A DNA stretch of 64,000 bases, taken from sequence record NC_106721.1. One strand, 5' to 3'. This DNA comes from Escherichia phage EC148. The position numbers and the translations under genes are program-made. The number at the start of each line of letters is the position of its first letter. Position 1 is the first letter of the stretch. This document shows, one piece after another, positions 20,885-57,984 of this stretch. The notes below the pieces were generated by a model that saw only the letters and a list, made by a program, of their open reading frames with translations, was not told where the DNA came from and ran no database searches.

Positions 20885-21298
20885 TTAAACTAGTTCGACA
20901 TGACCGCCATCATAGGTACCACGTTTTATTTCGTCGTGATAATCTCCCGAAGCATTCCAATCAGCACCAAAACGAAGTTTAATGCCTAGTTCTTTACCCG
21001 CTTGTTCAAAAGCCTTTTTAACTGCCCAAAATGCTTCTAAATCATTCCAATCAATTTTGCCATTAATGTATGGAGCAAAATCAAGGGCATCCCCAGTAAT
21101 ATGCTTGCTTTTACTAGGATCTTTTAAAAATGAAGTACCATTAGCAATATTCTGGGCACTTTGTGCTACTGTACGAATACCCTGTACGATCGTGAAATCA
21201 TATGGAGATAATTCTAAAGCTCTACGAGCTACTTTTTGTAGCTCTGGCTTAACGGTAGCTAATTGTTTTTCGCTATTTTTACCAAATTTAAAACTCAT
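20885..21298 (-). CDS. lys: endolysin, L-alanyl-D-glutamate peptidase (M15 family)
   Basis: 137 aa; H...D...H zinc-peptidase pattern (SKHITGD ... DGGHVEL); from memory the sequence looks near-identical to the T5 endolysin. Confidence 0.8.
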   Translation of the reverse strand: MSFKFGKNSEKQLATVKPELQKVARRALELSPYDFTIVQGIRTVAQSAQNIANGTSFLKDPSKSKHITGDALDFAPYINGKIDWNDLEAFWAVKKAFEQAGKELGIKLRFGADWNASGDYHDEIKRGTYDGGHVELV

Positions 21299-21951
21299 AT
21301 TGATCTACCTAAAGATCTCTGTTGTGGGGAACAGAGCTTTGTTAAATATTCCTTAAATTTCTCAGAATCGGCTGCATCTACAGGATTATCTTTCCAAGCA
21401 ATACCAATATATCCAGCATAGATATTGTTTAGATTGAAATATGGACAAGTGTATATGTAATTAAAAGTAACGTTCTTAAACGCAGGTATATTTAACCCCG
21501 TATATTTATTTACTCTTACACTTAAATCCGATGCGTAGTTAAAGCCCTCTAAGTGACGTCTGTATAGCTCAGACGTTTTATTTACTGCTTTATCGGCCAA
21601 GTCAGCCCTATCTAATTGCGCATTGCTTTCCCATGCAATAATGTTAGAATAATCATTAATGGCATCGGGTTTATACTTGACTACAAAAACAGCATCCGCA
21701 CCCGTTTGAGAAAAGAGTACCATGCTCTTTTCTCTAGCTACATTAGGAAAGTTATCTATCCTTTGAGTTTGAACATCCTGTAGAACCGCAGACGTGGAGA
21801 AAGTCTTTAAGAATGACATCACCTCGCTAGTATTACTAACAAATAAGAAAATAATGACAGCAACTAAGATAGTTAGCAGACGTTTAAGAAGCGATGCTGG
21901 ATCTTTCGCTTCTTGGAGCAGTACCGTTAATAATTGTAAGAACTTTTCCAA
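21295..21951 (-). CDS. hol: holin
   Basis: 218 aa with N-terminal TM helix, immediately upstream of and overlapping the endolysin gene. Confidence 0.6.
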   Translation of the reverse strand: MEKFLQLLTVLLQEAKDPASLLKRLLTILVAVIIFLFVSNTSEVMSFLKTFSTSAVLQDVQTQRIDNFPNVAREKSMVLFSQTGADAVFVVKYKPDAINDYSNIIAWESNAQLDRADLADKAVNKTSELYRRHLEGFNYASDLSVRVNKYTGLNIPAFKNVTFNYIYTCPYFNLNNIYAGYIGIAWKDNPVDAADSEKFKEYLTKLCSPQQRSLGRSI

Positions 21952-40423: not shown

Positions 40424-40493
40424 TACCGACCGTAGGATTCGAACCTACATCTTCCACCAGTTACGGCTTGATAATACCAATTATACTAGGACG
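40424..40493 (-). tRNA. tRNA-like element, anticodon unresolved
   Basis: T-arm GTAGG-ATTCGAA-CCTAC and plausible acceptor pairing; internal arms not resolved. Confidence 0.25.
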
Positions 40494-40718
40494 GCAGTGT
40501 TACTACATAAGTGATTTCCACACCCCACTATTTATAAATCAGAGAAGAGTTTAGGGGAGAGGTTTCAGACGCCTCATTTTACACGTTCTAGCCACTAACC
40601 GGGATTGCCGCCCCCTGTGTACTAGTTTTACAACTAACCCACCGACTCTATTCAATGCGCTCCGGTTGGGATTCTGCACTCAGCGTAATCGGCTCGCTGT
40701 TCCCTAATTTATGAATAT

Positions 40719-40747
40719 ATTATACAGAATTTATAAGCATTTAGCAA
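40719..40747 (-). promoter_or_regulatory. early promoter, TTGCTA-17-TATAAT
   Basis: conserved cassette. Confidence 0.55.
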
Positions 40748-40755
40748 ATGAATTT

Positions 40756-41190
40756 TTAGAAAAATTCACTAGCAATCAAAGCAGTTGTTTTACCGTCATA
40801 ACGTCCGGGAAATTCTGCCTTAATAGTTTTCATTAATAGAGCTTTGGTAATACCTGGGTTTAATTTAACCAGTTCTGCAAAATACTCACGAATCTGAACC
40901 TCAGTCAGTTGACTTGGCTGATACTCTTGCAGCATGGAATAAAGCAGTTGCTCATAGTCTACATCAGTAGGAACTTCCATACCAACTTTAATAGCGCGTT
41001 GTTTTGCATTTTCTAGAGCCTTAATCTGAGCTTTCAGATAGGCTACGAACTCGGTTCGAGTAACAATGTCTTTATCAATACGTTGCAGATCACCAATCAT
41101 GGTCTGAAGATTAAGTGCCCGTTCCTTATCACCGTGAGTACGTGCTAGACTAAGTAGTCCACGAAGGGTCATTAGAATATTTTCACCCAT
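40756..41190 (-). CDS. hypothetical protein
   Basis: 144 aa ORF. Confidence 0.45.
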   Translation of the reverse strand: MGENILMTLRGLLSLARTHGDKERALNLQTMIGDLQRIDKDIVTRTEFVAYLKAQIKALENAKQRAIKVGMEVPTDVDYEQLLYSMLQEYQPSQLTEVQIREYFAELVKLNPGITKALLMKTIKAEFPGRYDGKTTALIASEFF

Positions 41191-41194
41191 TATT

Positions 41195-41362
41195 TCATCC
41201 CCAATGCTTGGTTAAAAGATTGTTCTGTCATAACTGCTGAGACTTTGGCGAAATCAAACTTTTTAGGGTTCGTAGTTATTTCAGCAACGTTAGAAGTTTT
41301 AACAGTTTTCGTAGTACGAATACCGCGAGTGTTAACACCAATAATTACAACTGATTTCATAT
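41195..41362 (-). CDS. hypothetical small protein (55 aa)
   Basis: own translation MKSVVIIGVNTRGIRTTKTVK...; directly behind promoter 41392-41420; stop overlaps next start. Confidence 0.35.
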
Positions 41363-41391
41363 TTCGCTTCCTCTCATTAATTTATGAAAGT

Positions 41392-41420
41392 ATTATACAG
41401 AAATTTAAGTAGCTAAGCAA
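41392..41420 (-). promoter_or_regulatory. early promoter, TTGCTT-17-TATAAT
   Basis: conserved cassette. Confidence 0.55.
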
Positions 41421-41428
41421 GTAAATTT

Positions 41429-41896
41429 TTAAGTTTTAGTGACAACAGGTTTATAGAATGTATGTCCCTTAATCTTAGTTGTTTTCTTAAACTTCTTTGT
41501 CCAGTAAGGTTTATCTTTACCACTATGGAAGTATAGTGCTCCATATGTAGGATCTTGTGGTAAATCAACGTAGTATATCACTCTAGCTAAATTCTTAGCA
41601 GTTTGCCAAGCCTCATCAGTTTTATCAACTTTTGGTCTCTTAGATACCCAAGAGAACTGGTTAGACTGATATACTACTTTACAGTAGGAATCTGGGAATT
41701 TACCGGAGTTTACACGGTTTTTAGTAACATGTGCAATCGCCGTCATTCCCTTTATGCCCTCACCACGACTTTCGAAATAGATATTTTTAGCAATGCAATC
41801 TATTTCTTTTGCATCGTGCGATGCCTGACTACTAAAGCTGAAGGTAAGGGCAGCTACTAAAAGCAAAGCTGCCTTCATTCTTTTTACTCCTGCCAA
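41429..41896 (-). CDS. secreted cell-wall hydrolase, SleB/Hydrolase_2-like
   Basis: 155 aa; signal peptide; ESRGEG ... AIAHVTKNRVNSGKFP ... QSNQFSW matches the SleB-family signature. Confidence 0.5.
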   Translation of the reverse strand: MAGVKRMKAALLLVAALTFSFSSQASHDAKEIDCIAKNIYFESRGEGIKGMTAIAHVTKNRVNSGKFPDSYCKVVYQSNQFSWVSKRPKVDKTDEAWQTAKNLARVIYYVDLPQDPTYGALYFHSGKDKPYWTKKFKKTTKIKGHTFYKPVVTKT

Positions 41897-42201
41897 TCAT
41901 ATTCAACACGATTGGGATTTTCTTTATACCCTAAGTCAAGCAAATCATTACGCATATTTTGCTTAGCTACTGGGTTCGAGGTTACTAGTACCACTTTCTT
42001 TGGTCTCTGCCCAAATTCTAAGAGTAAACGAAGAATTTGATAACCTTCCATACCATCTACAGCCAAGTCATTATCCATATAAACGAAATGGCCGGTGGTA
42101 TCAGTTTTATTCAGAAACTCTACAGCGGCTTCTGGGGTTCGAATGATAATGTCCATTCCGTGAAGATTACGCACATCATCAATCAAAATATGAAAAGTCA
42201 T
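41884..42201 (-). CDS. CheY-like receiver-domain protein (tentative)
   Basis: 105 aa; HILIDDV, YMDNDL, VVLVTS pattern resembles receiver beta1/beta3/beta4 motifs. Confidence 0.3.
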   Translation of the reverse strand: MTFHILIDDVRNLHGMDIIIRTPEAAVEFLNKTDTTGHFVYMDNDLAVDGMEGYQILRLLLEFGQRPKKVVLVTSNPVAKQNMRNDLLDLGYKENPNRVEYDWQE

Positions 42202-42231
42202 AATAGCCTCGTTTCATCAATTTAAAAATAT

Positions 42232-42260
42232 ATTATACAGATAACTTAGTAAATTAGCAA
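42232..42260 (-). promoter_or_regulatory. early promoter, TTGCTA-17-TATAAT
   Basis: conserved cassette. Confidence 0.55.
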
Positions 42261-42643
42261 ATACATTTTTAAATTGTGAAACTAGTAAACCGATAAACAG
42301 CCTAGAGGCGCCACAGGCCATATCTTATGAGCCATGTACCTTTGATCTAGGGTTTGAATCATCAACGAATACTTTGCATCTTTTAGCTTTAGAAGTTTAG
42401 AAGTTTGAGTTCTTTAAACTTTTCAGCTTTCATACTTAAATGTTGATCTTTGAAGTTGTGTCGGTAATATCAACGACGCTTTGTTCTTACGTGTCAGCTT
42501 AAAAGGCTGGTGTAATAAACATAATCTCCAATAGATTATACTTTATAGTATGGTCAGCGGTCTTATTTAACCTCGTATTTCAACCGCTGCTGCGAGGTAA
42601 GATGCTTGGGCTTTCGTCTACCGATTTACTAGCTTTTAAATTA

Positions 42644-43282
42644 TTACTCTACTTCAATGAAGGTAGAGGCGTTAGACTCGGACAGAACAAAGTCAACATT
42701 TGTTGCAAAGTCCTGGTATTCCTCGTCATGCTGCTTAATCAACTTCTCCAGTTCCAGCGGATCAATCAAGAATGGAGTATTCTTGAGTTCCAGCAGGTTG
42801 AGTTGCATTTTAACTTCATCTTCGGAAGTTTTCTTATCACGGGTAGCCATGCTATCCTGCAAACGCTCATATTTAGCATCAAACTGTGCTTTCTGCGTAT
42901 TAAACTTAACCGTAGCGGCATGGAACTGCTTACGCATGTTAGCCAGCAGTTGAGCTTTAAGCTCCATAGAACGCTTAGCTTCAATTGCTTCCGCAACAGT
43001 CATTTTACGAGAACCGATCTCAACGATTGTTTCTGCATTGCTCTTAATCAGAGCAGATTTAATACGATCACGCTGAGACATCATATCCAGCAGAGACTGG
43101 AAATCAGTCTTAATACGAGTAGACAGATCAGCTACTTCGATTGCAGCGCCAACTACAACCTGGTTTTTATCCTTACCTTCACCAACAGCGATCAGAAGCT
43201 GCTGTTCAGTAGCTTTACGGATTTTAGCTTCCAGAGATTTGATAGTTGCTAGAGCGCGAGTTTTAGAAATACGAGTAGTCAT
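42644..43282 (-). CDS. hypothetical protein
   Basis: 212 aa; strongly biased codons (CGT, CTG, GGT); overlapping plus-strand ORF 42602..43252 judged spurious. Confidence 0.5.
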   Translation of the reverse strand: MTTRISKTRALATIKSLEAKIRKATEQQLLIAVGEGKDKNQVVVGAAIEVADLSTRIKTDFQSLLDMMSQRDRIKSALIKSNAETIVEIGSRKMTVAEAIEAKRSMELKAQLLANMRKQFHAATVKFNTQKAQFDAKYERLQDSMATRDKKTSEDEVKMQLNLLELKNTPFLIDPLELEKLIKQHDEEYQDFATNVDFVLSESNASTFIEVE

Positions 43283-43335
43283 TATTTGTTTCCTTATATG
43301 AGGTTTGAGATTTGAATTTGTTTAAAGTTGGTCTA

Positions 43336-43518
43336 TTACAGACCAATTGCCAGCAGAGTGCGCAGAACAGTATCGTTACTGTTATCAATTTTAGGATTAG
43401 CACGATTTAGCAGATCAAAGATTTTCTGGACACCTGATTGACGTTCAGCCATACGACGGATACCCAGATTACGAGTAGCTTTCTTACCATTTTTACGAAC
43501 ATTTTTAGATACTGGCAT
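43336..43518 (-). CDS. small basic protein
   Basis: 60 aa, Lys/Arg-rich. Confidence 0.4.
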   Translation of the reverse strand: MPVSKNVRKNGKKATRNLGIRRMAERQSGVQKIFDLLNRANPKIDNSNDTVLRTLLAIGL

Positions 43519-43588: not shown

Positions 43589-44290
43589 TCAAATTTTCAT
43601 TTTTTCGATCATAGCTGCAACACAATAGCTTTCAACTAAGGCATCAAATGCAGGATCATGCTTAACCGGATAGATCCCATAACGAATGGTGTCCATCTTC
43701 TCCATTTTAGCTTTTGCCCAGCTAATACCTTCAGCCTCTAGATCTTTGTAACTATAATCAGCTTGCATCCAGAGATTACGAAGAGATCGAACATTGCCCA
43801 AATTCCAGAATTTCCACGGAACTACCTCTTCATTGGTTCCAGCATGGAATGTGTTTGCAGAGTAGATAGTCATATCAAACTCTGGGCCATTACCATAATA
43901 CAAAGCATTTTCGCCTAGAGCCAACTCCATAATATTTTGAGCCATAGAGAAGGCAGCATAGTTTGAGCCAAATTTATTAGTGCAATGATGTTTACCATTT
44001 TGGAAGGCAATCAGTTTTGGATTACGTTCCTTCATAGCTTCCATAATGTGAATAGCAGACGGGCTATTTTTAGCTTGATCCATCCAGAATGCTAGAGTAG
44101 ATGCTGTAACTTTAGCACCAGAATTAAGCTGATCTTGTACATCCAAAGTAACAAATACTAGATCAGGGTCTTTATCAATTCCATGCATAGCCACAAAAGC
44201 GAAAGAAGGCATTGCGATATGAGTAGTACCACAATCTCCTGGAGTTCCCAGAGATTCAATATCTAGCATACCAAATGGTTTTACTTTCAT
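43589..44290 (-). CDS. hypothetical protein, possible DEDD-type exonuclease
   Basis: 233 aa; N-terminal MLDIESLGT resembles Exo I motif (D-x-E); other motifs not confirmed. Confidence 0.3.
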   Translation of the reverse strand: MKVKPFGMLDIESLGTPGDCGTTHIAMPSFAFVAMHGIDKDPDLVFVTLDVQDQLNSGAKVTASTLAFWMDQAKNSPSAIHIMEAMKERNPKLIAFQNGKHHCTNKFGSNYAAFSMAQNIMELALGENALYYGNGPEFDMTIYSANTFHAGTNEEVVPWKFWNLGNVRSLRNLWMQADYSYKDLEAEGISWAKAKMEKMDTIRYGIYPVKHDPAFDALVESYCVAAMIEKMKI

Positions 44291-45467: not shown

Positions 45468-45917
45468 TTAATTTATTAACTGTAAGCTTCTTTTAATTTC
45501 AGACCTTACTTGCATCAAAAGGACTCCTAAAGTATTATCCCCGATGCCTCGGCAAACACCCCAATATGTATCTCCCCAGGTATTTCCTTCGATCAAAGTT
45601 GCATTTTCTGTTGCTAACAGTTTATCTCTTAAATCAGGAATTGCAAACTTTAATCGTAAAAGCTCTAGCATTACATCATCTTTTACTTTATCCCAGTCAG
45701 AGCGTAGGGTTAATTTACGTCCTCTACGTTTAGCAACTCCTGCATTTAGGGAGCGGAGTACATGAGCTACATCATCTTTTTGGTCGGATTTCATAGCCTG
45801 AAAAGCATGTTCTACAGTATCAGCATGCCATATCTCATTTAGATATTCGAAAGTAATTGGTGATAAATAAAAGTTAGATAAGAAACTATAAGTACCTTTA
45901 AATTCAGTAATCTTCAT
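45468..45917 (-). CDS. NADAR / YbiA-like (DUF1768) domain protein
   Basis: 149 aa; LSNFY ... EHAFQA ... GR ... W ... ENxWGDxxWG ... G.GxNxLG ... VR matches the NADAR family pattern. Confidence 0.65.
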   Translation of the reverse strand: MKITEFKGTYSFLSNFYLSPITFEYLNEIWHADTVEHAFQAMKSDQKDDVAHVLRSLNAGVAKRRGRKLTLRSDWDKVKDDVMLELLRLKFAIPDLRDKLLATENATLIEGNTWGDTYWGVCRGIGDNTLGVLLMQVRSEIKRSLQLIN

Positions 45918-56303: not shown

Positions 56304-56493
56304 GGGTTTAAACTCCGCTTTGGAAAATGCATTAATGCAGCAGTGGGAAACTGGCTATAAGGATGGTGTTGAATCCTGCGCTACTATGCTAGAAGTTATT
56401 GCTAATACCTTAATGGAGAAAGGCAATAAAGAATTAGCTGAGCTATTAGACAGTATTGGGCAAAACTTCAGAGAACAGGTGAAAAATGCGTAG
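56272..56493 (+). CDS. hypothetical protein
   Basis: 73 aa ORF. Confidence 0.4.
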   Translation: MAFSKPILPDKGLNSALENALMQQWETGYKDGVESCATMLEVIANTLMEKGNKELAELLDSIGQNFREQVKNA

Positions 56494-57322
56494 ATTAATT
56501 ATTATTAGTGGTGCGGGTTTGAGTGTTGAAAGTGGTGTACGAGCCTTCCGTACTGATACTGCTAGTGGTAAAGCATTGTGGGATGACTATGATCTAGAAG
56601 AAGTATGTAATATTCATGCCTTTCGTGGTAATTTTTATCATAAAACCCATATGTTTTACAACAAGCGTCGTGAAGAGCTAAAAACTGTTGAACCCAATCT
56701 TGCGCATTTGCGTATTGGTGAATGGTATAAACAATATCCAGGTCAAGTAGTAAACTTGACTACCAACGTTGATGACCTTATTGAGCGTGCTGGCGTTCCA
56801 CATAGTGACATTCTGCATATTCACGGATATTTAAAAGAGGTTGTTGTAGCTGATAGCTACAATAGTAGCAATAAACGGATTATTGATGTAGGATACAATT
56901 CTATTGATCCAGATGATTATAAATGGGTTAAACCTAATGTAATCTTCTTTGGAGAGCATGCTCCTGCATACGCAGAAATGTATAATGTTTTTGACGGTAT
57001 TACCAGTCAAGATATGATCATTGTGGTTGGTTGCTCTAACCAAGTAATTAACTTCTACTGGGAATTATTTCCTGTTCTTAATAGGACTGCTGCGAAATTT
57101 ATGGTAGTTAACTACTATGATAGTGCCCTCGCGGCGGAACCGGGCTATCAAGGTATGACTCGTAGTGAGATGTACCAGCTGGAAGAACGTGGTGTCCCTT
57201 ACTGGAGTAAAGGTGCGGTAGATGCTTTTAGTGATCCTGATTTTATTGCTCGTGTAGAAGCTCATTTAGAGGGTAGACCTTATGTGTCGAGAAGCAAGGG
57301 AAACAGATATGTCCATAGTTAA
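56486..57322 (+). CDS. Sir2-family (sirtuin-like) NAD-dependent enzyme lacking the zinc-ribbon module
   Basis: 278 aa; GAGLSVESGVRAFR, TTNVDDLIERAG, HIHG, VIFFGE match sirtuin NAD-binding motifs; no CxxC pairs. Confidence 0.6.
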   Translation: MRRLIIISGAGLSVESGVRAFRTDTASGKALWDDYDLEEVCNIHAFRGNFYHKTHMFYNKRREELKTVEPNLAHLRIGEWYKQYPGQVVNLTTNVDDLIERAGVPHSDILHIHGYLKEVVVADSYNSSNKRIIDVGYNSIDPDDYKWVKPNVIFFGEHAPAYAEMYNVFDGITSQDMIIVVGCSNQVINFYWELFPVLNRTAAKFMVVNYYDSALAAEPGYQGMTRSEMYQLEERGVPYWSKGAVDAFSDPDFIARVEAHLEGRPYVSRSKGNRYVHS

Positions 57323-57491
57323 ATCTGTGTATACACACCCCGATGATATATTTGTATGGGCGGATGGTAGTTGGTGCTATCGCTGTGAGCTGTGGGAGAT
57401 GGACTATAAATCCGATGACTATGGTGTTATATATGTTGATACGGTTGAGTATGATACGTTCTTAGAAAGGAACAAAAATGGAAATAAGTAA
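57282..57491 (+). CDS. hypothetical protein
   Basis: 69 aa ORF. Confidence 0.35.
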   Translation: MCREARETDMSIVKSVYTHPDDIFVWADGSWCYRCELWEMDYKSDDYGVIYVDTVEYDTFLERNKNGNK

Positions 57492-57984
57492 TACTCCAAT
57501 TATTTTTCTAGATATTGATGGGGTGCTCAATTCGAGCATCTCCCACCATCATGCACCTGATGACGAAAAGATTTTCTTTGGAAGTGATTGGGTTTTCAAA
57601 CCGCTTCTCAAGGCTTTTCAGGACTTTATTCGTCCTTCTCCGATAATGATTGTTGGAGTATCCTCATGGTTCTCTGTCAGGAATGAGATGGAGAACGTTC
57701 AGATTATGACCGGATTAGGTCTTATCGATCGTTTTCTTGGTACAACGGATTTTACTGGGGGTGGATTATCTAGGGGTAATTCTGTTCTTCGCTTCGTTGA
57801 AAAGCATAAGCTCAAACATTGGTGTGTTCTGGATGACGCTGGTGCTATGATGTACCAGTATCCAACGGTTATAGTCAACGGTAGAACTGGAATAAATCTT
57901 CAAGATTTAATGGCTGTTAGCTATATGCTAGAATTTAGTCCAGATCTTGAAATGTGTAAAGCCCTACAACAATTTAAGGTGTAA
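57478..57984 (+). CDS. HAD-superfamily phosphatase
   Basis: 168 aa; motif I FLDIDGVLN. Confidence 0.5.
   Translation: MEISNTPIIFLDIDGVLNSSISHHHAPDDEKIFFGSDWVFKPLLKAFQDFIRPSPIMIVGVSSWFSVRNEMENVQIMTGLGLIDRFLGTTDFTGGGLSRGNSVLRFVEKHKLKHWCVLDDAGAMMYQYPTVIVNGRTGINLQDLMAVSYMLEFSPDLEMCKALQQFKV

What the first reader, a model, noticed from the sequence alone, without database searches (positions are those of the whole stretch)
41429..42201. Secreted SleB-like cell-wall hydrolase next to a possible CheY-like receiver protein
A signal-peptide-bearing Hydrolase_2-family protein is encoded outside the holin-endolysin cassette (20885-21951), suggesting a second periplasmic peptidoglycan-modifying activity. 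The adjacent 105 aa ORF has a receiver-domain-like motif pattern, which would be unusual in a lytic phage, though that assignment is weak.
Basis: inference. Interest (0 to 1): 0.4.

Follow-up and report, generated by a model that had tools for sequence, protein, structure and literature searches.

The report
T5 early genes: cREC and SleB-like hydrolase
These are two already-annotated early genes of a T5-type phage, an exported SleB-type cell-wall hydrolase and a small 'cREC' receiver-fold protein that is common in phages but has never been tested biochemically; they are neighbours by ancestry, not a working pair.

Summary
Both ORFs are real, on the minus strand. The window is a T5-like phage, 100% identical here to Escherichia phage T5_ev212. 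In T5 the genes are ORF079 and 'sleb', lying between two annotated early promoters.

41429-41878 encodes a 149-aa precursor with a Sec-type signal peptide and a Hydrolase_2 domain (E 3.8e-25). Its model matches the Bacillus SleB catalytic domain. It is not an SleB orthologue (TIGR02869: 50 bits against a 236.5 cut-off).

cREC is a phage-borne family never linked to histidine kinases. It is predicted, not shown, to process cyclic phosphates or ADP-ribose derivatives.

The adjacency holds only in close T5 relatives. It is broken in phage My1 and absent from nine unrelated cREC loci. Two T5 relatives carry Sequestin genes (3'cADPR sponges) beside cREC.

Verdict: ordinary and already annotated. 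The untested biochemistry of cREC is the only open point.

The parts
42232..42260 (-). Sigma-70-type early promoter candidate (TTGCTA, 17 nt, TATAAT) upstream of the cREC gene; equivalent to the annotated 'putative early promoter T5P23' of phage T5
   Evidence: The scan gives a 10/12 match, but the scan as a whole is not enriched over shuffles (5 sites found against 7.4 expected). The call therefore rests on the position and on the T5 annotation, in which T5P23 ends 5 nt before the ORF start. No terminator-like site lies between 40600 and 43400.
41884..42201 (-). Stand-alone cREC (cyclic-phosphate-processing receiver) domain protein: 105 aa, 12.2 kDa, pI 4.9, no signal peptide; T5 ORF079
41429..41878 (-). 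Precursor of an exported SleB/CwlJ-type cell-wall hydrolase (149 aa plus stop codon); T5 gene 'sleb'
   Evidence: Pfam PF07486, E 3.8e-25. PHROG 938, 'endolysin'. phmmer to SleB catalytic domains 4F55 and 4FET, E about 1e-7 to 1e-8, aligning YFESRGE with YGESRGE. AF2 model pLDDT 91.6. Foldseek hits only the SleB structures with confidence: TM 0.71-0.79 normalised to the target, 28-31% identity.
41822..41878 (-). Predicted Sec signal peptide, residues 1-19 (MKAALLLVAALTFSFSSQA, predicted cleavage before SHD)
   Evidence: Kyte-Doolittle maximum of 2.96 over residues 3-11, an uncharged stretch of 18 residues, and small residues at -3 and -1. The same architecture with divergent sequence occurs in most of the 32 homologues. 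No signal-peptide predictor was available, so the cleavage site is inferred.
45468..45917 (-). Context only: NADAR-domain protein in the same early gene block, 3.3 kb upstream of cREC
   Evidence: Pfam PF08719, E 7.2e-22.
56486..57984 (+). Context only: adjacent SIR2 (56486-57322) and HAD_SAK_2 'Swiss-army-knife' RNA-repair phosphatase (57478-57984) genes, about 14 kb from cREC
   Evidence: Pfam PF02146, E 8.2e-25, and PF18143, E 4e-20. This pair is the phage SP15-type sirtuin/HAD association described in PMC9503650.
20885..21951 (-). Context only: the canonical lysis cassette, made of the T-type holin (21295-21951) and the EndoT5 L-alanyl-D-glutamate peptidase (20885-21298)
   Evidence: Holin PF11031, E 2.8e-112. 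Endolysin matches PDB 2MXZ at E 1.3e-90.

Best explanation
The locus is the two-gene early unit ORF079-sleb of a T5-like phage (Demerecviridae, Tequintavirus). Both genes lie on the minus strand behind one sigma-70 early promoter. The ribosome-binding site of the second gene overlaps the stop codon of the first. The two products act in different compartments and are most likely functionally independent accessory genes.

(1) The 105-aa product is a cytoplasmic, stand-alone cREC domain with a pared-down receiver fold. The acidic pocket (D8, D9, D43) and the beta4 Thr/Ser are intact. Helix alpha1 (in receivers, the main docking surface for histidine kinases) and the beta5 lysine are lost. The family adds conserved R11, R21, D45 (a D-x-D motif) and N76.

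Inferred: it is not a phosphorelay switch. It is an enzyme, or a tight binder, for a phosphorylated nucleotide-type ligand. The candidates predicted for the family are 2',3'-cyclic-phosphate RNA ends and cyclic ADP-ribose-type molecules. On this view it belongs to the phage's dispersed NAD/ADP-ribose and RNA-repair/counter-defence kit: Sir2 plus HAD-SAK, NADAR, and 21 tRNA genes.

(2) The 149-aa product is exported by Sec, cleaved after SQA, and yields a 15-kDa basic (pI 9.7) periplasmic SleB/CwlJ-type muralytic domain that uses the conserved Glu of the YFESRGE motif.

Inferred: it cuts peptidoglycan glycan strands independently of the holin and acts as an auxiliary wall-loosening or lysis factor alongside the EndoT5 peptidase.

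Shown here: gene identities, folds, conserved residues, genomic contexts. Inferred: both biochemical activities, signal-peptide cleavage, co-transcription.

The confidence of 0.65 applies to the overall picture: the two identities, and two independent early accessory genes. The specific cyclic-phosphate or cADPR-processing chemistry of cREC alone I put at about 0.35.
For: Identity:
- 100% nucleotide identity to T5_ev212.
- In T5 the genes are ORF079 and 'sleb', flanked by the annotated early promoters T5P23 and T5P22.
- Promoter-like site at 42260-42232; ribosome-binding site and junction.

cREC:
- Residue conservation in 129 diverse representatives.
- 427 representatives at E<=1e-3 among 1.84 billion proteins, nearly all stand-alone and about 100 aa.
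- An in-register alignment to CheY pairs D43 with D57, T74 with T87 and Y92 with Y106.
- Family description and predictions: PMC7824862 and PMC9503650.

Context:
- NADAR; SIR2 plus HAD_SAK_2; 21 tRNA genes.
- T4-type RNA ligase 1 lies 1 kb from a 36%-identical cREC.
- Sequestin (PF21825) genes lie directly beside cREC in two T5 relatives. Sequestin is an experimentally shown 3'cADPR sponge (bioRxiv 10.1101/2025.07.12.664507).

Hydrolase.

Independence of the two genes:
- They are 2.7 kb and five genes apart in phage My1.
- No Hydrolase_2 gene lies within the flanks of nine non-Demerecviridae cREC loci.
- HNH or Sequestin genes are inserted between them in L026, L042 and L043.
Against: - No biochemical activity has been reported for any cREC protein. 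The only two papers found call it experimentally uncharacterized.
- In this window cREC is not in an operon with any NAD/ADP-ribose or RNA-repair gene. The nearest, NADAR, is 3.3 kb away, and phage tRNA regions collect accessory genes in general.
- The Sequestin association rests on two related genomes and could simply mark an insertion hot spot.
- Bacillus SleB acts on muramic-delta-lactam cortex peptidoglycan (PMC13556211), which E. coli lacks, so the phage enzyme's substrate and bond specificity are unknown.
- Signal-peptide cleavage was judged by eye and hydropathy only.
- The promoter scan is not enriched over shuffles.
Confidence: 0.65

Rival explanations
1. The 105-aa protein is a true single-domain response regulator: a CheY-like phosphate sink or decoy. 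It would take phosphate from host histidine kinases or acetyl phosphate to blunt a host two-component response, for example envelope-stress signalling provoked by the neighbouring periplasmic hydrolase.
For: Receiver fold. The acidic pair, the phospho-acceptor-position Asp, the beta4 Thr/Ser and an aromatic residue at the CheY Y106 position are all conserved. It is stand-alone, like CheY. It is an early gene next to an envelope-active enzyme. One GenBank record names it 'cell division response regulator'.
Against: It fails the Response_reg threshold. Lys at the beta5 position occurs in only 20 of 129 relatives. The model has no helix alpha1, which in receivers is the main docking surface for kinases (established knowledge of HK-RR complexes). 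The family's describers report that it is never found with histidine kinases. The near-invariant Asp at D+2 and the two invariant arginines are not receiver features. The adjacency to the hydrolase is lineage-specific.
Confidence: 0.07
2. The two genes are a functional module: the receiver-fold protein controls the synthesis, export or activity of the SleB-like hydrolase.
For: There is a 5-nt intergenic gap, and the hydrolase's ribosome-binding site overlaps the cREC stop codon. The adjacency is kept in all 26 viral contigs scanned except My1, and in most T5-like records.
Against: One product is cytoplasmic and the other exported. The cREC protein has no DNA-binding or other output domain. The genes are separated by five genes in My1. 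They are separated by an HNH gene in L026 and by Sequestin genes in L042 and L043. Nine unrelated cREC loci have no Hydrolase_2 gene nearby. Hydrolase_2 genes occur in 1272 phage records, far more than the 492 with cREC.
Confidence: 0.03
3. The hydrolase's N-terminus is a signal-arrest-release (SAR) anchor, not a cleaved signal peptide. The protein would be a membrane-tethered second endolysin released when the membrane depolarises.
For: The hydrophobic N-terminus is rich in Ala, Ser and Thr. Phage databases label the family 'endolysin'. The gene is independent of the holin cassette.
Against: The hydrophobic core is only about 13-15 residues and is followed by a canonical small-x-small site (SQA|S). 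Similar sites occur in homologues (YAS, HAT, VAK, SAS). The hydrophobic segment contains no Cys. T5 already has a holin/endolysin pair.
Confidence: 0.12

Closest known systems
Phage T5 ORF079 and gene 'sleb' (GenBank AY587007; 'spore cortex-lytic enzyme precursor')
   Same: Same genes in the same order, between the same early promoters. cREC is 96.2% identical by tblastn.
   Different: Nothing of substance. T5's ORF079 is annotated 5'-truncated (168 nt), although the full 105-codon frame is intact.
cREC / cREC_REC family (Pfam PF20274; Iyer, Aravind and colleagues, Viruses 2021 and 2022)
   Same: Passes the family model. Has the conserved aspartates. Is phage-borne and stand-alone. Its genome also carries the sirtuin plus HAD-SAK pair, NADAR and many tRNA genes.
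   Different: Here it is not fused to Nudix and not in an operon with an RNA ligase, sirtuin or 2H enzyme, as in the published neighbourhoods. Its immediate partner is a cell-wall hydrolase.
CheY and other single-domain response-regulator receivers (Pfam PF00072)
   Different: Below the Pfam threshold. No alpha1 or alpha5 in the model. No conserved beta5 Lys. Extra invariant R11, R21, D45 and N76. No histidine-kinase partner is known.
Bacillus SleB catalytic domain (PDB 4F55, 4FET)
   Same: Same fold (TM 0.71-0.79 normalised to the target) and the same ESRGE motif.
   Different: No N-terminal peptidoglycan-binding domain. Only 50 bits on the SleB equivalog model, against a 236.5 cut-off. Two conserved Cys residues (C28, C66) that align with Leu and Ser in SleB. 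The host wall lacks muramic-delta-lactam.
HAD-superfamily phosphatases (D-x-D nucleophile and general-acid motif): a working analogy only
   Same: A Rossmann-like fold with an Asp nucleophile position followed by Asp at +2. D43-x-D45 is present in 128 of 129 relatives.
   Different: In HAD enzymes the motif follows beta1, whereas here it follows beta3 as in receivers. There is no cap domain. The structural hits are receivers, not HAD enzymes. The analogy comes from general knowledge and was not tested.
Phage proteins that neutralise nucleotide immune signals (Sequestin, Tad1/2, Acb1-type 2H phosphodiesterases)
   Same: Small early accessory proteins. Sequestin genes sit directly beside cREC in two T5 relatives.
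   Different: No sequence or fold relationship, and no evidence that cREC binds or cleaves any signal. This window has no Sequestin gene.

Membership tests
Hydrolase_2 (PF07486, SleB/CwlJ catalytic domain) | Score above the Pfam gathering threshold over the full domain | tested here: met
   88.9 bits against 27; profile positions 1-100 of 100.
Hydrolase_2 (PF07486, SleB/CwlJ catalytic domain) | SleB catalytic-domain fold | tested here: met
   Model pLDDT 91.6. Foldseek to 4F55 and 4FET: probability 1.00, TM 0.71-0.79 normalised to the target. No other confident hit.
Hydrolase_2 (PF07486, SleB/CwlJ catalytic domain) | Conserved glutamate of the (Y/G)E(S/A)RGE motif (reported from memory as the catalytic Glu of SleB; that paper was not available) | tested here: met
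   E36 and E40 are invariant in 32 homologues. YFESRGE aligns with the YGESRGE of 4F55 and 4FET.
SleB orthologue (NCBIfam TIGR02869 equivalog, spore cortex-lytic enzyme) | Full-length score above the equivalog cut-off, including the N-terminal peptidoglycan-binding domain | tested here: not met
   50.4 bits against 236.5; only profile positions 79-201 match.
SleB orthologue (NCBIfam TIGR02869 equivalog, spore cortex-lytic enzyme) | Lytic activity on muramic-delta-lactam-containing cortex | not testable with these tools
   Needs enzymology. The host E. coli has no cortex.
Canonical receiver domain (Response_reg, PF00072) | Score above the Pfam gathering threshold | tested here: not met
   12.5 bits against 30.2, E 0.17.
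Canonical receiver domain (Response_reg, PF00072) | Flavodoxin-like receiver fold | tested here: met
Canonical receiver domain (Response_reg, PF00072) | Five alpha helices alternating with five strands, including alpha1 (kinase docking) and alpha5 | tested here: not met
   The model has strands at 4-7, 18-20, 39-42, 69-72 and 100-102, but helices only at 23-32, 53-62 and 77-89.
Canonical receiver domain (Response_reg, PF00072) | Acidic pair after beta1, phospho-acceptor Asp after beta3, and Thr/Ser after beta4 | tested here: met
   D8, D9 and D43 in 129/129; T or S at position 74 in 129/129.
Canonical receiver domain (Response_reg, PF00072) | Conserved Lys after beta5 | tested here: not met
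   The position aligned to CheY K109 is N95 here, and is Lys in only 20 of 129 relatives.
Canonical receiver domain (Response_reg, PF00072) | Cognate histidine kinase or phosphotransfer partner | not tested
   The window was not scanned exhaustively for kinases. The family's describers state it is never found with histidine kinases.
cREC_REC (PF20274) | Score above the Pfam gathering threshold | tested here: met
   56.8 bits against 27; profile positions 2-86 of 88. UniProt and NCBI name close homologues accordingly.
cREC_REC (PF20274) | Conserved catalytic-position aspartates shared with receivers | tested here: met
   D8, D9 and D43 invariant; D45 in 128/129.
cREC_REC (PF20274) | Genomic association with NAD/ADP-ribose-processing or RNA-repair genes | tested here: inconclusive
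   The same genome carries NADAR at 3.3 kb, and Sir2 plus HAD_SAK_2 at 14 kb, but not in the same operon. Relatives sit next to T4 Rnl1 or Sequestin. Other loci have only unannotated neighbours.
cREC_REC (PF20274) | Cyclic-phosphate or cADP-ribose processing activity | not testable with these tools
   This is a prediction only. No experimental paper was found.
SAR endolysin | Uncleaved, weakly hydrophobic N-terminal transmembrane segment that can leave the membrane | tested here: inconclusive
   The hydrophobic core is about 13-15 residues and is followed by SQA|S, which favours a cleaved signal peptide. No predictor or experiment was available.

The most novel reading that the evidence does not exclude
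T5 ORF079, and cREC proteins generally, may be enzymes that use the receiver-type Asp pocket, with D45 as a HAD-like general acid/base, to open or dephosphorylate cyclic-phosphate nucleotides. The substrates would be either TIR-derived cADPR-isomer immune signals (an enzymatic anti-Thoeris activity complementing the Sequestin sponges found beside cREC in T5 relatives) or the 2',3'-cyclic phosphate ends of nuclease-cleaved tRNAs, feeding the phage's Sir2/HAD-SAK/NADAR pathway. This would be the first catalytic, non-phosphorelay function shown for a receiver fold, and it could be tested in a classical model phage.
Probability: 0.2. Interest if true: 0.7.

Novelty: already known. Interest (0 to 1): 0.27.

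Why it matters
There is little new here. The sleb gene has been annotated in the T5 GenBank record AY587007. A 'second endolysin far from the holin' in T5-like phages was noted in 2012 and 2024 (PMC3326045, PMC11180984). The 105-aa ORF already carries the cREC name in UniProt and NCBI records.

The residual value is practical. cREC is a widespread, phage-enriched receiver-fold family with an invariant acidic pocket and no experimental characterization. T5 offers a 12-kDa stand-alone member in a tractable phage-host pair.

Sequestin sponges sit next to cREC in two T5 relatives, and T4-type RNA ligase sits next to a distant cREC. This gives two concrete substrate classes to test. The exported SleB-type enzyme raises a smaller open question: what an additional, holin-independent muralytic activity does for a phage that already has a complete lysis cassette.

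Tried and rejected
- A profile search of the cREC alignment against PDB sequences gave strong whole-sequence E-values to TAL effectors. Every individual stretch had an E-value above 100. The score is the sum of a short P-x-x-V-V-x-[VI]-[AT]-S-N motif over many TALE repeats, so I rejected it as a repeat artefact. True receivers scored only E about 1.
- hhalign of the cREC alignment against a single CheY sequence gave 6% probability. I used it only for register, which agrees with the fold search.
- The viral-contig scan with the wide alignment A2 failed because it had no conserved stretch. The scan with A1 returned only T5-like contigs.
- The afdb50 fold library was unavailable.
- tblastn found no Sequestin gene or remnant in the window.
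- Rfam found nothing in the 380-bp gap upstream of the promoter.
- The terminator scan found none between 40600 and 43400.
- Literature searches for an experimental cREC study or a functional study of T5 sleb found none. The 2026 preprint on RyR-domain enzymes that degrade cADPR does not mention cREC.
- The SleB structure paper (PMC3415495) is not held, so the identity of the catalytic Glu is cited from memory.
- Model coordinates could not be accessed. The C28-C66 distance and the geometry of the Asp pocket could not be measured.
Full report
**What is there.** The window is a T5-like phage. A 2.6-kb stretch around the finding is 100% identical to Escherichia phage T5_ev212 and at least 80% identical to 445 phage records, mostly from Salmonella and Escherichia.

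The 105-aa ORF (41884-42201) starts at an ATG preceded by GAGG. The hydrolase ORF listed from a TTG at 41896 almost certainly starts at the ATG at 41878. That ATG lies 8 nt after an AGGAG that overlaps the upstream TAA stop codon. This start gives the 149-aa product annotated in T5_ev212 and in T5 itself.

In the T5 record AY587007 the two genes are ORF079 (annotated 5'-truncated, although the whole frame is intact at 96% identity) and 'sleb', 'spore cortex-lytic enzyme precursor'. They sit between the annotated early promoters T5P23 and T5P22. A TTGCTA, 17 nt, TATAAT site lies at 42260-42232. The scan is not enriched over shuffles, so this call leans on the T5 annotation. No terminator-like site was found in 40600-43400.

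**The hydrolase.**
- Pfam Hydrolase_2 matches end to end (E 3.8e-25), and PHROGs places it in an 'endolysin' family.
- It aligns to the solved SleB catalytic domains 4F55 and 4FET, with YFESRGE over YGESRGE.
- E36 and E40 are invariant in 32 homologues.
- An AlphaFold model (pLDDT 91.6) finds only the SleB structures with confidence: TM 0.71-0.79 normalised to the target, 28-31% identity.
- It is not an SleB orthologue. The NCBIfam equivalog model gives 50 bits against a cut-off of 236.5 and covers only the C-terminal catalytic part. There is no N-terminal peptidoglycan-binding domain.
- The N-terminus (MK / AALLLVAALTFSF / SQA|S) has the n/h/c layout of a Sec signal peptide. The same layout, with unrelated sequence, recurs in most homologues.
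- The mature product would be 130 aa, 15.0 kDa, pI 9.7.
- Two cysteines (C28 nearly invariant, C66 invariant) align with Leu and Ser in Bacillus SleB. This fits a disulfide in an exported protein, but I could not measure it in the model.

So this is a second, holin-independent wall enzyme.

That point is already in the literature for T5-like phages (PMC3326045; PMC11180984). Hydrolase_2 genes occur in 1272 phage records from many hosts.

**The 105-aa protein.**
- With a 41-sequence alignment the model reaches pLDDT 93.4 and pTM 0.86.
- Pfam Response_reg is not significant (12.5 bits against 30.2). The significant match is cREC_REC, PF20274 (56.8 bits against 27).
- A whole-library profile search found 427 representatives at E<=1e-3, nearly all about 100 aa and stand-alone. 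The few longer ones carry an HNH endonuclease or unassigned extensions.

Conservation in 129 representatives that are 27-65% identical to the query:

| Position | Conservation |
|---|---|
| D8, D9, D43, G53 | 129/129 |
| D45 | 128/129 |
| R21 | 128/129 |
| N76 | 127/129 |
| R11 | 122/129 (plus 6 Lys) |
| Position 74 | always Thr or Ser |
| Position 92 | always aromatic |

An in-register, statistically weak alignment to CheY pairs D43 with D57, T74 with T87 and Y92 with Y106. It puts N95 at the K109 position, and that position is Lys in only 20 of 129 relatives. The model has no helix between beta1 and beta2 and none after beta5.

So four of the five classical receiver residues are kept. The lysine and helix alpha1 are lost. 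The family adds two invariant arginines, an Asn, and an Asp two residues after the acceptor-position Asp.

**What is known about cREC.** Iyer, Aravind and colleagues defined cRec as a divergent receiver that is never found with histidine kinases. They found it linked to NAD/ADP-ribose-processing and RNA-repair genes. They predicted that it resolves cyclic phosphates (2',3'-cyclic RNA ends, cyclic ADP-ribose phosphate), and they state that it is experimentally uncharacterized (PMC7824862, PMC9503650). I found no later experimental paper. UniProt and NCBI already name T5-like homologues 'cyclic-phosphate processing receiver domain-containing protein'.

**Context in this phage.** The genes lie at the edge of the tRNA region: 21 tRNA genes between 28571 and 39921.
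- Downstream are a DUF7616 gene and a YqeY/GatB-like gene.
- Upstream in the same block are an Rv2179c-like exonuclease, DUF7022, a NADAR-domain gene (45468-45917) and RNase H.
- About 14 kb away on the other strand sit a SIR2 gene and a HAD_SAK_2 'Swiss-army-knife' RNA-repair phosphatase side by side. This is the SP15-type association described in PMC9503650.

The phage therefore has several members of the NAD/ADP-ribose network, but cREC is not in an operon with any of them.

**Are the two genes a pair?** I built HMMs of both families and scanned all fetched loci.
- In T5-like contigs the genes abut, with three exceptions.
- The exceptions are an HNH homing endonuclease inserted between them in L026 and Sequestin (PF21825) genes inserted in L042 and in Enterobacter phage KKP_3711.
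- In Pectobacterium phage My1 (Demerecviridae, a different subfamily) cREC is 2.7 kb and five genes away from the hydrolase.
- In nine cREC loci from other phage lineages there is no Hydrolase_2 gene in the flanks.
- One product is cytoplasmic and the other exported.

I conclude that the adjacency is inherited gene order, not a functional module.

**Contexts that bear on cREC function.**
- A 36%-identical cREC lies 1 kb downstream of a T4-type RNA ligase 1 gene.
- Three unrelated contigs have SprT-like genes within 1-4 kb, and two have calcineurin-like phosphoesterases.
- In a KVP40-like Vibrio phage cREC again sits beside a tRNA cluster.
- In two T5 relatives cREC is directly flanked by Sequestin genes. 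Sequestin was shown experimentally to sequester the Thoeris signal 3'cADPR (bioRxiv 10.1101/2025.07.12.664507).

These fit the published prediction. They are few, and they lie in regions that collect accessory genes anyway.

**Mechanism, with what is shown and what is inferred.** Shown: identities, folds, conserved residues and contexts.

Inferred for cREC: a cytoplasmic early protein that uses the receiver-type acidic pocket on a phosphorylated nucleotide-like ligand. Three features argue for catalysis or ligand binding and against a phosphorelay switch: the D43-x-D45 spacing (the nucleophile and general-acid arrangement of HAD phosphatases, from general knowledge), the loss of the kinase-docking helix, and the loss of the lysine.

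Inferred for the hydrolase: Sec export, cleavage after Ala19, and Glu-dependent cleavage of peptidoglycan as an auxiliary wall-loosening or lysis activity. Its bond specificity is unknown. Bacillus SleB targets muramic-delta-lactam cortex, which E. coli lacks.

Rivals, with my estimates:
- A CheY-like phosphate sink: 0.07.
- A regulatory pair: 0.03.
- A SAR-type membrane-tethered endolysin: 0.12.

**Verdict.** Both genes are already annotated and discussed, so novelty is 'already known'. The remaining interest is that cREC has no tested function and T5 is a convenient system in which to test it.

Noticed in passing
L042 3763-3993 and 4331-4546; L043 2977-3234 (Enterobacter phage KKP_3711, PP579741.1 106592-106849): Sequestin genes (PF21825, experimentally shown 3'cADPR sponges) are inserted directly beside cREC in two T5-like relatives. 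In both, one lies between cREC and the SleB-like gene; L042 has a second one upstream of cREC. The Sequestin preprint, as read here, reports it in BASEL phages of the Tevenvirinae only. This window has no Sequestin gene (tblastn).
   Followed up: partly
L026 5324-5788; L037 2485-3306 (phage MSP1) and protein P0140: Homing endonucleases target this junction. An HNH gene sits between cREC and sleb in L026. In MSP1 a 273-aa ORF fuses an HNH_3 domain to cREC.
   Followed up: partly
window 56486-57322 (+), 57478-57984 (+) and 45468-45917 (-): The phage carries an adjacent SIR2 and HAD_SAK_2 (RNA-repair 'Swiss-army-knife' phosphatase) pair and a NADAR-domain gene. These are components of the NAD/ADP-ribose and RNA-repair network with which cREC is associated in the literature.
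   Followed up: partly
window 42261-42643: About 380 bp between the 212-aa gene (PHROG 'tail fiber protein', probably misnamed) and the early promoter has no ORF of 40 aa or more on the coding strand and no Rfam match. In L042 the equivalent interval holds a Sequestin gene, so this may be an empty accessory-gene slot.
   Followed up: partly
window 40424-40495 (-): Rfam calls a tRNA here (35.5 bits against a cut-off of 29) that ARAGORN did not report. T5 annotates the equivalent as a pseudo-tRNA.
   Followed up: no
window 40621-40861 (-): A weak full-length match to the group I intron model (19.5 bits against a cut-off of 50, E 0.063), overlapping the 3' end of the YqeY-like gene and the intergenic region. 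It is probably chance.
   Followed up: no
L002 3823-4284, L004 5067-5672, L038 7008-7580: SprT-like metalloprotease genes lie within 1-4 kb of cREC in three unrelated metagenomic phage contigs. Two of them (L002, L004) also have a calcineurin-like phosphoesterase nearby. I did not test whether this recurrence exceeds chance.
   Followed up: no
window 41429-41878 (-), residues C28 and C66 of the 149-aa product: The secreted phage and proteobacterial Hydrolase_2 subgroup has two conserved cysteines that Bacillus SleB lacks. This suggests a periplasmic disulfide.
   Followed up: partly
window 42644-43282 (-) and 43589-44290 (-): Database names here look unreliable. The 212-aa early protein is called 'tail fiber protein' (PHROG 1491) with no supporting domain. 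The Rv2179c-like 3'-5' exonuclease is annotated as 'metallopeptidase' in several records.
   Followed up: no
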